A stretch of 64,000 nucleotides of DNA from Felixounavirus LF82P5, in the sequence record OZ035800.1; one strand, given 5' to 3'. Position numbers and translations under genes: made by a program. Positions 8,757 through 19,304 of this stretch are shown here, piece after piece (within the stretch, counting starts at the first letter, position 1; the number at the start of each line of letters is the position of its first letter). The notes under the pieces were generated by a model. That model made no database searches. It was not told where the DNA came from and saw only the letters and a list, made by a program, of their open reading frames with translations.

Positions 8757-10109
8757 ATGTGGAATCCAATTGTTAATGTAGATATTACATTGAACACCGC
8801 AGGAACTACAAGAGAAGGTTTTGGTTTGCCACTATTCTTAGCTTCAACAGATAACTTTGAAGAAAGAGTCCGTGGTTACACTTCCTTAACTGAAGTTGCT
8901 GAAGATTTCGATGAAAACTCTGCTGCATATAAGGCTGCTAAACAACTTTGGAGTCAGACTCCTAAAGTAACTCAGCTTTATATTGGTAGACGTGCTATGC
9001 AGTACACTGTATCAATTCCTAATGCCGTTGCTGAAAGTACAGACTACTCAATTACTGTAGCTGCTGGCGGTGGAATTTCTCAACCATATCAGTATACAGC
9101 GCAAGCTGAAGACACTGCTGAAAACGTGTTGCAACAGTTTAAAACACAGATTGAAGCTGACCCAACAATCAAAGATAAGGTTTCTGTGAACGTAACTGGT
9201 AGCAATGGCTCTGCCACAATGATTATTACCAAAGCTGGTGATAATGACTTTGTGAAAGTAACAACTACAGCACAGACTGTGTATATTGCAAGTACAACTG
9301 CCGATACAGCATCAACTGCTCTGGCAGCTATCGAAGCTTACTCTACTGACTGGTATTTCATTGCAGCAGAAGACAGAACTCAACAGTTTGTCTTAGCAAT
9401 GGCTTCTGAGATTCAGGCTCGCAAGAAAATCTTCTTTACAGCTAACTCCGATGTAACAGCCCTGCAAGGTACAGAATTAGCCAGTGCAAATGATGTTCCA
9501 GCACAGCTTGCTAAGAGTATGTACACTCGTACAGTTTGCTTGTGGCATCACGCAGCAGCAGAAGACTACCCAGAGATGGCATACATTGCTTATGGTGCTC
9601 CATATGATGCAGGTTCAATTGCTTGGGGTAATGCTCAGCTAACTGGTGTAGCAGCTTCTCTACAACCATCTAATCAGAGACCTCTGACAAGTATTCAGAA
9701 GTCTGCTTTAGATGTACGTCACTGTAACTTTATTGACCTTGATGGTGGTGTTCCAGTGGTTCGTAGAGGGATTACTTCTGGTGGGGAATGGATTGATATC
9801 GTCCGTGGCGTTGACTGGTTAGAATCAGACCTGAAAACTTCTCTGAGAGACTTGCTAATTAACCAGAAGGGTGGTAAGATTACTTATGATGATACTGGTA
9901 TTACCCGTATTCGTCAAGTCATTGAAACCTCTCTACAAAGAGCAGTCAACAGAAACTTCCTGTCATCTTACACAGTTAATGTTCCTAAAGCCTCTCAAGT
10001 TGCTTTGGCAGACAAGAAAGCTCGTATCCTGAAAGATGTTACCTTCGCAGGTATCTTAGCAGGGGCTATCTTGGATGTTGACTTGAAAGGTACAGTGGCT
10101 TACGAATAA
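8757..10109 (+). CDS. Tail sheath protein (by synteny)
   Basis: 450 aa ORF followed by small tube-sized ORF, chaperone pair and tape measure; classic contractile-tail order. Confidence 0.6.
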   Translation: MWNPIVNVDITLNTAGTTREGFGLPLFLASTDNFEERVRGYTSLTEVAEDFDENSAAYKAAKQLWSQTPKVTQLYIGRRAMQYTVSIPNAVAESTDYSITVAAGGGISQPYQYTAQAEDTAENVLQQFKTQIEADPTIKDKVSVNVTGSNGSATMIITKAGDNDFVKVTTTAQTVYIASTTADTASTALAAIEAYSTDWYFIAAEDRTQQFVLAMASEIQARKKIFFTANSDVTALQGTELASANDVPAQLAKSMYTRTVCLWHHAAAEDYPEMAYIAYGAPYDAGSIAWGNAQLTGVAASLQPSNQRPLTSIQKSALDVRHCNFIDLDGGVPVVRRGITSGGEWIDIVRGVDWLESDLKTSLRDLLINQKGGKITYDDTGITRIRQVIETSLQRAVNRNFLSSYTVNVPKASQVALADKKARILKDVTFAGILAGAILDVDLKGTVAYE

Positions 10110-10124
10110 TAGAGGTAAATTGGA

Positions 10125-10571
10125 ATGGCTATGTATCAGCAATATTCCCCTAAAGACGTTGTATGTAGCTGGAATGGTATTGCCATTGAAGGCTTTGCCC
10201 CAGATTCATTCTTGCGTCTACAGAGAACATCACCGCTTGTGACACCAGTTGTTGGTGCAGGTGGTCAAGTTGCTCTGACAAGAAATGCAGACAAGACAGG
10301 TACTATTGAGATTGAGTTAATGCAGACTTCTCTCTCTAACCAGATGCTTTCTGCAATTCAAGCTAAACAAGACAATATGGAACTTGAAGAAGATATCTCT
10401 TCTAACTTCGTAATCTACGACCCATCAGGCTCTGTTCTGGCAACTGGTATTAATGCTTGGTTGCAGGAATTACCACAGATTGAACTTGGTCGTGACCAGA
10501 ACTCTAAAACTTGGATTTTTGGTTGTGAGAAGCTAGACTACACTTCTACAATTCCAGCGTCAAGTGTTTAA
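10125..10571 (+). CDS. Tail tube protein (by synteny)
   Basis: 148 aa ORF after sheath, followed by strong terminator. Confidence 0.6.
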   Translation: MAMYQQYSPKDVVCSWNGIAIEGFAPDSFLRLQRTSPLVTPVVGAGGQVALTRNADKTGTIEIELMQTSLSNQMLSAIQAKQDNMELEEDISSNFVIYDPSGSVLATGINAWLQELPQIELGRDQNSKTWIFGCEKLDYTSTIPASSV

Positions 10572-10582
10572 TAAATCCTATA

Positions 10583-10615
10583 AGGGGGAGACTTTAAAAG
10601 GTCTTCCCCTTTTTT
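10583..10615 (+). terminator. Rho-independent terminator after tail tube gene
   Basis: Stem AGGGGGAGAC/GTCTTCCCCT (one wobble), 8 nt loop, TTTTT run. Confidence 0.75.
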
Positions 10616-10644
10616 GTTTCTTTTAAAAGTATTAAGGAATCACA

Positions 10645-11043
10645 ATGAAAACAGAATCTAGAGTAATTAATGGCAAGAAAGTAAATATCGTTCTGCTTGG
10701 GGCAAGAGATGGTATTAAGATGTCTATGAAGTTGGGTAAGATTGTTGTTCCAACATTTGCACAGATGCTGTCAAGTCTGACTGATAAAGATAAGAAAGAA
10801 GCTCCAATGGTTCCATTTAAAGAACTTGTTGAAGCTTGTTTTGACAGAATTGAAGAAATTAACCTTGAAGAGATGGCTACCTTATTATTTCAAGGGGCAA
10901 CTGTTGACGACTTCCCACTTAATATTGATACGCACTTCCAAGCAAACTACGGTGAGTTTATTGATTACTTAGCATTTGCGCTGGAGGCAAACTTCGGAAG
11001 TTTTTTCGAAGCAAGCATTTTCAAAAGCCTAACTTCTCAGTAA
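10645..11043 (+). CDS. Tail assembly chaperone (G-like)
   Basis: 132 aa ORF immediately upstream of tape measure; contains slippery TTTTTTC near its 3' end. Confidence 0.55.
   Translation: MKTESRVINGKKVNIVLLGARDGIKMSMKLGKIVVPTFAQMLSSLTDKDKKEAPMVPFKELVEACFDRIEEINLEEMATLLFQGATVDDFPLNIDTHFQANYGEFIDYLAFALEANFGSFFEASIFKSLTSQ
11001..11007 (+). other. Slippery heptamer T_TTT_TTC for -1 programmed ribosomal frameshift in tail chaperone gene
   Basis: Zero-frame codons AGT TTT TTC; -1 frame continues open into 11046..11285 ORF. Confidence 0.55.
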
Positions 11044-11045
11044 AC

Positions 11046-11284
11046 ATGGGTAACACTCTACAGACACCACTGACTGATGCTGCTGTAGAGGCAACCTATG
11101 AAGAAGCAGACGAGATGAAATTTGTGCTTGCTATTTATGGTATGGAAGGGTGTAAAGAAACACTTGACCAACTCTTTGCTATGACATTCTCTGATTTATT
11201 ATCATTGAGACAATTTCTTGAAATTCAGAGGTCGTATAAAGAGGAAATTGCTTACAACGAACTTAGAAGAGCAGGAAAAATGTA

Positions 11285-11285
<1 letters not shown>
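11046..11285 (+). CDS. Tail assembly chaperone T-like part, probably expressed as -1 frameshift extension of 10645..11043
   Basis: ORF in -1 frame relative to upstream chaperone; its frame is open from 10965, overlapping the upstream ORF. Confidence 0.5.

Positions 11286-19304
<8,019 letters not shown>

What the first reader, a model, noticed from the sequence alone, without database searches (positions are those of the whole stretch)
10645..11285. Programmed -1 ribosomal frameshift joining the two tail assembly chaperone ORFs
The slippery heptamer T_TTT_TTC (11001-11007) lies in the zero frame of the 132-aa chaperone ORF. The -1 frame is open from 10965 and runs through the downstream 79-aa ORF to 11285. 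A frameshift would produce a fusion of about 213 aa alongside the short product, the conserved G/GT arrangement upstream of tape measure genes. The annotated ATG at 11046 may therefore not be an independent start.
Basis: partly seen in the sequence, partly recalled or inferred. Interest (0 to 1): 0.5.

Follow-up and report, generated by a model that had tools for sequence, protein, structure and literature searches.

The report
Tail chaperone frameshift site, already known
The window is a Felix O1-type phage, and the two small genes before its tape measure gene are almost certainly joined by a programmed -1 ribosomal slip at T_TTT_TTC; this is the ordinary, already annotated arrangement for such phages.

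Summary
T_TTT_TTC (11001-11007) is phased X_XXY_YYZ in the 132-aa ORF (10645-11043). The -1 frame is open from 10965 to the stop at 11283-11285. A shift gives a 213-aa fusion.

The window is 100% identical to Felixounavirus LF82P5. ORF1 is a Pfam Phage_TAC_15 tail assembly chaperone. It lies between the tube and tape measure genes.

Comparative evidence supports the interpretation:
- All 25 protein clusters (60% identity or more) of relatives keep T_TTT_TTY in phase, including rV5-like phages at 26-29% identity and clusters at 60-66% GC.
- The -1 frame stays open 77-117 codons in every one. Most have no start codon near the 5' end of the downstream ORF.
- Nucleotide diversity across the two genes is lowest at 10975-11019.
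- It is the only in-frame TTTTTTC in 18,351 codons of the window.

No conserved downstream RNA structure exists. An SD-like GGAGG/GAGG 13 nt upstream is kept in 21 of 25 clusters and is a candidate stimulator.

The frameshift is not new. GenBank records of Salmonella phage Mushroom (same genus) and Citrobacter phage Mordin carry the joined CDS, and the Michonne, Moogle and Mijalis papers state it. I found no experimental proof for this clade. Most records, including the RefSeq records checked (VpaE1, Sf14), still list two separate genes.

The parts
10634..10638 (+). Shine-Dalgarno-like AAGGA, 6 nt before the ORF1 start
   Evidence: Read from the sequence. The homologous position is annotated as a ribosome binding site in phage Mushroom.
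10645..11043 (+). Zero-frame tail assembly chaperone gene ('G', 132 aa, 14.8 kDa), stop TAA at 11041-11043
   Evidence: ORF list. Pfam PF21822 Phage_TAC_15, E 4e-20, 73 bits against a cutoff of 22. phrog_1613 tail assembly chaperone, E 1e-48.
10983..10987 (+). Internal SD-like GGAGG, 13 nt upstream of the heptamer; candidate 5' frameshift stimulator (inferred)
   Evidence: GGAGG or GAGG sits at exactly this spacing in 21 of 25 clusters of relatives. It depends on using GAG for the conserved Glu, whereas GAG is only 35% of Glu codons in the window. The spacing is within the 6-17 nt range used for proven stimulators in PMC4066793.
11001..11007 (+). Slippery heptamer T_TTT_TTC (X_XXY_YYZ) in the zero frame
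   Evidence: GTTTTTTC is the only invariant block in a 10-genus alignment. 25 of 25 clusters have T_TTT_TTY. It is the only in-frame occurrence in the window.
10975..11019 (+). Minimum of nucleotide diversity over the whole two-gene region
   Evidence: Mean pairwise difference is 0.074-0.079 here, against about 0.25 elsewhere, in 44 distinct sequences. Megablast aligns Erwinia phages to the window only over 10990-11030, at 92.7% identity.
10645..11285 (+). Predicted frameshift fusion 'GT': 10645-11007 read in frame 0, then 11007-11285 read in frame -1 (base 11007 read twice); 213 aa, 24.3 kDa
   Evidence: Translations. The same span is annotated as a two-piece joined CDS 'tape measure chaperone' in Salmonella phage Mushroom and Citrobacter phage Mordin.
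11046..11285 (+). Downstream ORF as usually annotated (79 aa, 'T' segment). Its ATG is probably not the main route of expression.
   Evidence: phrog_4963 tail assembly chaperone, E 3e-55. No SD in the 18 nt upstream. The ATG is not conserved in position and is absent in Kolesnikvirus and Wc4-1.
11285..13513 (+). Tape measure protein gene (742 aa). Its ATG overlaps the GT stop codon (TAATG, 11283-11287), with AGGA at 11273-11276.
   Evidence: Pfam TMP_3 and phrog_4036; sequence.
10125..10571 (+). Tail tube gene (148 aa), upstream context
   Evidence: phrog_280 and Pfam KPP10_Orf10. The sheath gene lies at 8757-10109 (phrog_205).

Best explanation
This is the tail assembly chaperone pair of a Felix O1-type myophage, expressed by a programmed -1 ribosomal frameshift.

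Most ribosomes translate 10645-11043 and release the 132-aa chaperone. The shift occurs when tRNA-Phe occupies both UUU (11002-11004, P site) and UUC (11005-11007, A site). A minority of ribosomes then slip back one base. Both tRNAs re-pair with UUU-UUU, the next codon read is CGA at 11007, and translation continues to 11285. The product is a 213-aa fusion sharing its first 121 residues with the short protein.

By analogy with lambda G/GT, the common part would hold the tape measure protein and the added part would recruit tube subunits. The low slip rate would set the ratio of the two proteins.

Shown here: the signal, its phase, its exceptional conservation and the dependence of the downstream ORF on it in relatives.

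Inferred: that slippage actually occurs, its rate (probably a few percent), the division of labour of the two parts, and a stimulating role for the GGAGG 13 nt upstream.
For: - Coordinates and frames.
- Identity of the phage.
- Chaperone family and the tube-chaperone-tape measure gene order.
- The heptamer is in phase in Felixounavirus, Mooglevirus, Suspvirus, Kolesnikvirus and Wc4-1, and in the rV5-like phages CR8 and Av-05.
- 48 of 48 distinct metagenomic relatives, and 25 of 25 clusters, have T_TTT_TTY. The Ser/Cys codon before it always ends in T and the first Phe codon is always TTT, even at 60-66% GC.
- The -1 frame is open 77-117 codons past the site in all relatives, and in most the first start codon lies 20-70 codons downstream.
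- Diversity is lowest at the site.
- It is the only in-frame TTTTTTC in the window.
- U_UU.U_UU.C falls in the efficient H_HH.U_UU.Y class in E. coli, is under-represented in E. coli genes, and is used by IS elements (PMC4066793).
- Independent curators annotated the join. Papers state it for Michonne (-1 frame), Moogle and Mijalis.
Against: - No protein-level or reporter evidence for any member of this clade was found.
- There is no stable or conserved RNA structure 5-9 nt downstream. Fold z-scores are +1.0 and -0.3, and the alignment fold energy is -0.7 kcal/mol.
- In this genus an ATG lies 2 nt after the ORF1 stop, so re-initiation could also give a free 79-aa product.
- Most database records, including the RefSeq records checked (VpaE1, Sf14), list two separate genes.
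- The metagenomic relatives were found through the peptide motif ending in FF. This fixes the amino acids, though not the codons.
Confidence: 0.88

Rival explanations
1. There are two independent proteins. ORF2 is translated from ATG 11046 by termination-reinitiation after the ORF1 stop (TAA-AC-ATG), and the heptamer is an accident of the Ser-Phe-Phe coding.
For: The ATG lies 2 nt after the stop. Felixounavirus, Suspvirus and Mooglevirus all have an ATG 2-8 nt after the ORF1 stop. Most records annotate two CDS.
Against: There is no SD upstream. The ATG is not positionally conserved and is absent in Kolesnikvirus, Wc4-1 and most distant relatives, although the downstream peptide is conserved there. 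This reading cannot explain the synonymous choice of NNT-TTT-TTY in 25 of 25 clusters, including GC-rich ones, or the diversity minimum at the site. It could still occur in addition to the frameshift.
Confidence: 0.05
2. The fusion arises from transcriptional slippage. RNA polymerase adds one U in the T6 run, and normal translation of that mRNA gives the same 213-aa protein.
For: The protein product would be identical (S-F-F-R). 8 of 48 distinct relatives have T7-T8 runs. A weak hairpin precedes the T run.
Against: Productive slippage in bacteria is described for runs of about 9 A or T (PMC5009743), and T6 is short. The run is always phased as X_XXY_YYZ with the 0 frame, which matters for ribosomes and not for polymerase. 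The SD-like element at a fixed distance fits a ribosomal mechanism.
Confidence: 0.05
3. It is a sequencing artefact. The true gene is a single ORF with T7, as in phage CL1, and T6 is a homopolymer error.
For: Record OK040806 (CL1) has T7 and one fused 213-aa ORF.
Against: All 40 loci in the window's protein cluster (Felixounavirus with Mooglevirus and Suspvirus), and every other genus examined, have the two-frame arrangement. They come from many laboratories and sequencing platforms. CL1 is the single exception.
Confidence: 0.01

Closest known systems
Annotated frameshift in Felix O1-like phages: Salmonella phage Mushroom KP143762 (Felixounavirus), Citrobacter phages Mordin, Michonne, Moogle and Mijalis (Mooglevirus)
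   Same: These are homologous genes, 97% (Mushroom) and about 80% (Mordin) identical in DNA to the window. They have the same heptamer and the same span. The joined CDS 'tape measure chaperone' sits alongside the short product. The Michonne paper states a -1 shift.
   Different: There is no biological difference. Those annotations are also predictions without experiment. Most other records of the genus do not carry the join.
Phage lambda G/GT and the conserved tail chaperone frameshift of Xu, Hendrix and Duda 2004
   Same: Two overlapping ORFs lie between the major tail (tube) gene and the tape measure gene. A -1 slip near the end of the first ORF gives a short product and a fusion product (role described in PMC5009743).
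   Different: From memory, lambda uses G_GGA_AAG; here it is T_TTT_TTC. There is no detectable sequence similarity to lambda G: the Pfam family here is Phage_TAC_15. The host tail is contractile. A conserved upstream SD-like element is present here.
Phage P2 E / E+E' (myophage tail chaperone frameshift; from memory: Christie et al. 2002, T-rich heptamer)
   Same: It is a contractile-tail phage with a -1 slip on a T-run heptamer just before the tape measure gene.
   Different: It is a different protein family and a temperate phage. This was not compared here with tools.
E. coli dnaX and IS911/IS3 -1 frameshift signals
   Same: A heptamer plus an internal Shine-Dalgarno-like sequence upstream at a defined distance (PMC5009743; PMC4066793).
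   Different: Those signals also have a downstream hairpin or pseudoknot, and none is conserved here. The stimulatory role of GGAGG here is untested.

Membership tests
G/GT-type tail assembly chaperone pair with programmed frameshift (Xu et al. 2004) | Two small ORFs lie between the tube (major tail) gene and the tape measure gene | tested here: met
   Sheath 8757-10109, tube 10125-10571, ORF1 10645-11043, ORF2 11046-11285, tape measure gene 11285-13513.
G/GT-type tail assembly chaperone pair with programmed frameshift (Xu et al. 2004) | The second ORF is in another frame, overlaps the 3' end of the first, and has a slippery sequence in the overlap | tested here: met
   The -1 frame is open from 10965. 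T_TTT_TTC at 11001-11007 is in X_XXY_YYZ phase.
G/GT-type tail assembly chaperone pair with programmed frameshift (Xu et al. 2004) | The slippery site and the two-frame layout are conserved in divergent relatives | tested here: met
   25 of 25 clusters have the site, down to 24-29% identity, including Vequintavirinae.
G/GT-type tail assembly chaperone pair with programmed frameshift (Xu et al. 2004) | The downstream ORF lacks its own translation start signals | tested here: inconclusive
   In the window, an ATG is present at 11046 but has no SD. In relatives there is no start codon for 20-70 codons in Kolesnikvirus, Wc4-1 and most metagenomic loci.
G/GT-type tail assembly chaperone pair with programmed frameshift (Xu et al. 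2004) | Both the short product and the fusion product are made, and both are needed for tail assembly | not testable with these tools
   No published experiment for this clade was found.
Pfam PF21822 Phage_TAC_15 | Score above the curated gathering threshold | tested here: met
   73 bits against a cutoff of 22, E 4e-20, covering residues 9-124.
Known solved chaperone folds | Structural similarity of ORF1 to a solved tail assembly chaperone | tested here: inconclusive
   [not shown]
Canonical bacterial -1 frameshift signal | X_XXY_YYZ heptamer of a class that is shift-prone in E. coli | tested here: met
   U_UUU_UUC belongs to the H_HH.U_UU.Y efficient class (PMC4066793).
Canonical bacterial -1 frameshift signal | Upstream SD-like stimulator 6-17 nt before the motif | tested here: met
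   GGAGG at 10983-10987. It is conserved at the same spacing in 21 of 25 clusters. This shows sequence presence only; function was not tested.
Canonical bacterial -1 frameshift signal | Downstream hairpin or pseudoknot 5-9 nt after the motif | tested here: not met
   Fold z-scores are +1.0 (53 nt) and -0.3 (83 nt). The alignment fold gives -0.7 kcal/mol. Only GC-rich distant relatives have a 9-bp hairpin 7 nt downstream.
Transcriptional slippage site | Homopolymer run of about 9 or more A or T | tested here: not met
   The run is T6. The length criterion comes from PMC5009743.

The most novel reading that the evidence does not exclude
The frameshift may be driven not by a downstream RNA structure but by an internal Shine-Dalgarno-like GAGG/GGAGG held exactly 13 nt upstream of the heptamer. 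This element is kept across a very wide family of myophage chaperones (Ounavirinae, rV5-like phages and many uncultured relatives) through synonymous choice of GAG for an invariant glutamate. In Felixounavirus there may also be a third product: free 79-aa T made by re-initiation at ATG 11046.
Probability: 0.35. Interest if true: 0.35.

Novelty: already known. Interest (0 to 1): 0.15.

Why it matters
The value is mainly in annotation. Most public Felixounavirus records checked, including the RefSeq records (VpaE1, Sf14), list two separate 'tail assembly chaperone' genes. Erwinia phage records omit the second ORF altogether. The evidence says the second ORF is expressed as a 213-aa fusion.

The survey also gives a clean example of a slippery site held by synonymous-codon selection from 37% to 66% GC. 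It yields a testable candidate 5' stimulator. It changes nothing about how tail assembly chaperones are understood.

Tried and rejected
- Downstream stimulatory structure: single-sequence folds of 53-136 nt and an alignment fold over nine Ounavirinae sequences gave nothing conserved. A 123-nt long-range fold has z -2.8 in the window but is not supported by the alignment.
- A hairpin CUUCGGAA/UUCGAAG that encloses the heptamer is reduced to 4 bp in Kolesnikvirus (sequence). I treated it as a by-product of coding.
- A terminator-like match at 10981-10997 plus the T run is weak, with two G-U pairs, and the matching Kolesnikvirus sequence differs.
- The large protein search returned only 132-aa chaperones and no fused entries, so it did not help count annotated fusions.
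- Phage-encoded tRNA-Phe: there are no tRNA genes in the window.
- Experimental evidence: nothing in the Felix O1 genome and proteome paper, the VpaE1 paper, the Felixounavirus comparative paper or the PhageMaP preprint. Xu et al. 2004 is not held.

Full report
**What is there**

The window is 100% identical over the tested 1.5 kb to Felixounavirus LF82P5, and 95-99% identical to about 200 Felix O1-like phages of Escherichia, Salmonella and Shigella.

The local gene order is:

| Gene | Coordinates | Evidence |
|---|---|---|
| Tail sheath | 8757-10109 | phrog_205 |
| Tube | 10125-10571 | phrog_280 |
| ORF1 | 10645-11043, 132 aa | Pfam Phage_TAC_15, E 4e-20, above the curated cutoff; phrog_1613 |
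| ORF2 | 11046-11285, 79 aa | phrog_4963 'tail assembly chaperone' |
| Tape measure | 11285-13513 | Pfam TMP_3, phrog_4036 |

**Check of the observation**

The sequence reads ...GGA AGT TTT TTC GAA... in the ORF1 frame. T_TTT_TTC therefore occupies 11001-11007 in X_XXY_YYZ phase.

The -1 frame is open from 10965 and runs through ORF2 to TAA at 11283-11285. A -1 shift gives 121 + 92 = 213 aa (24.3 kDa), beside the 132-aa (14.8 kDa) product.

In-frame X_XXY_YYZ heptamers occur at 0.0037 per codon in the window's 64 long ORFs, so about 0.1 is expected in the 26-codon overlap. However, TTTTTTC occurs in frame only once in 18,351 codons, here. Only 1 of 19 Phe-Phe dipeptides is encoded T|TTT|TTC.

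**Comparative evidence**

Relatives found by overall protein similarity were read directly. The heptamer is in phase at the homologous position (...NFGSFF / ...NYGCFF), with a long -1 ORF ending at the tape measure gene, in all of these:
- Felixounavirus
- Mooglevirus (Mordin, Sf14)
- Suspvirus
- Kolesnikvirus (43% identity)
- Pectobacterium phage Wc4-1 (40%)
- the rV5-like phages CR8 and Av-05 (26-29%)

In a 10-genus DNA alignment, GTTTTTTC is the only invariant block.

A scan of IMG/VR gave 80 loci. That scan used the peptide motif E[AVK]N[FY][GS][SC]FF, so the amino acids are fixed by ascertainment but the codons are not.
- All 48 distinct sequences have a Ser codon ending in T (AGT or TCT) and TTT for the first Phe. 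The site reads T_TTT_TTC in 40 and T_TTT_TTT in 8.
- The -1 frame stays open 77-117 codons past the site.
- In most, the first possible start codon in that frame lies 20-70 codons downstream.

Clustered at 60% protein identity, 25 of 25 clusters carry the site. This includes clusters at 60-66% GC, where AGT, TCT and TTT are disfavoured codons.

Within 44 distinct sequences alignable over the whole two-gene region, nucleotide diversity is lowest at 10975-11019: 0.074-0.079, against about 0.25 elsewhere. Megablast aligns Erwinia phages to the window only across 10990-11030.

**Is ATG 11046 a real start?**

Three points argue against it as the main route:
- The 18 nt upstream hold no Shine-Dalgarno sequence. 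ORF1 and the tape measure gene both have one (AAGGA at 10634-10638 and AGGA at 11273-11276).
- The ATG is not positionally conserved. In Mooglevirus the ATG aligns with CTA in the window.
- Kolesnikvirus and Wc4-1 have no start codon before the conserved part of the peptide, and annotators there left the region empty.

The ATG does lie 2 nt after the ORF1 stop, so some re-initiation in this genus cannot be excluded.

**Mechanism**

U_UUU_UUC lets tRNA-Phe in both the P and A sites re-pair with UUU-UUU after a one-base backward slip. The motif belongs to the efficient H_HH.U_UU.Y class measured in E. coli. It is under-represented in E. coli genes and is used by IS elements (PMC4066793).

No stable or conserved structure follows the site. 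Fold z-scores are +1.0 and -0.3, and the alignment fold energy is -0.7 kcal/mol. Only GC-rich distant relatives have a 9-bp hairpin 7 nt downstream.

Upstream, GGAGG (10983-10987) lies 13 nt before the heptamer. GGAGG or GAGG is found at exactly this spacing in 21 of 25 clusters, and in 12 of the 14 clusters with 47% GC or less. The window uses GAG for only 35% of its Glu codons. The distance is inside the 6-17 nt range for experimentally proven SD stimulators (PMC4066793; see also dnaX and IS elements in PMC5009743). I regard this as a plausible but untested stimulator. It is missing in Kolesnikvirus, CR8, L044 and L068.

The functional division (common part binds the tape measure protein, extension recruits tube protein) is taken from lambda G/GT (PMC5009743). 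It is inference here.

**Rivals**

- Independent initiation cannot explain the codon-level conservation, or the relatives that lack a start codon.
- Transcriptional slippage would give the same protein. But T6 is short compared with the runs of about 9 known to slip, and the strict phasing with the reading frame points to the ribosome.
- A sequencing artefact is excluded by the many independent records. The only exception is phage CL1, which has T7 and a fused ORF.

**Comparison with what is known, and novelty**

This is the conserved tail chaperone frameshift of Xu, Hendrix and Duda (2004). It has already been recognised in this clade:
- The GenBank record of Salmonella phage Mushroom (same genus, 97% identical here) carries a two-piece joined CDS over exactly the homologous span, plus the short product.
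- Citrobacter phage Mordin carries the same annotation.

I found no experimental demonstration for any Felix O1-like or rV5-like phage. Most records, including the RefSeq records checked (VpaE1, Sf14), still show two separate genes.

**Verdict**

The feature is ordinary and already known. Its small added value is the breadth of conservation and the candidate upstream stimulator.

Noticed in passing
window 10582-10611 (T tract to about 10617): A strong terminator-like hairpin (13 pairs, then TTTTTGTTT) lies between the tube gene and the chaperone gene. The homologous site is annotated as a terminator in phage Mordin. It may lower expression of the chaperone and tape measure genes relative to the sheath and tube genes.
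   Followed up: partly
L003 952-1000 (Escherichia phage CL1, OK040806): This record has T7 instead of T6 at the slip site, so the two ORFs are fused into one 213-aa 'tape measure chaperone' gene. It is either a homopolymer sequencing error or a real mutant that makes only the fusion.
   Followed up: partly
L009 601-1001 (Citrobacter phage BSwM KMM4, OP902293): ORF1 is broken by an extra frame change after 89 codons and continues in another frame. This is probably a sequencing error in that record.
   Followed up: no
window 11572-11578 and 11467-11473: The tape measure gene holds an in-frame A_AAA_AAG, the most shift-prone heptamer in E. coli, and an in-frame A_AAA_AAT. The -1 frame closes after 5 and 9 codons, so a slip there would only truncate the protein.
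   Followed up: partly
window 11283-11287: The stop codon of the -1 frame ORF overlaps the tape measure start (TAATG). Ribosomes finishing the fusion could couple into the tape measure gene, which also has its own AGGA at 11273-11276.
   Followed up: no
L063, L070, L072, L079, L084, L088, L092 (heptamer +7 nt): GC-rich uncultured relatives have a 9-bp hairpin (CCGCGAGCG...CGCTCGCGG) starting 7 nt after the heptamer, with fold z-scores down to -5. The same chaperone family therefore seems to use different stimulators in different lineages.
   Followed up: partly
[not shown]
   Followed up: no
L005, L006, L011, L012 (about 1011-1248 in the first three): In Erwinia, Hafnia and Pectobacterium phage records, the roughly 240-nt stretch between the chaperone gene and the tape measure gene is left unannotated. 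It encodes the conserved -1 frame extension.
   Followed up: yes
window 1-64000: ARAGORN found no tRNA genes in the window, although Felix O1 is reported to carry 22. They must lie in the roughly 20 kb of the genome outside the window.
   Followed up: no
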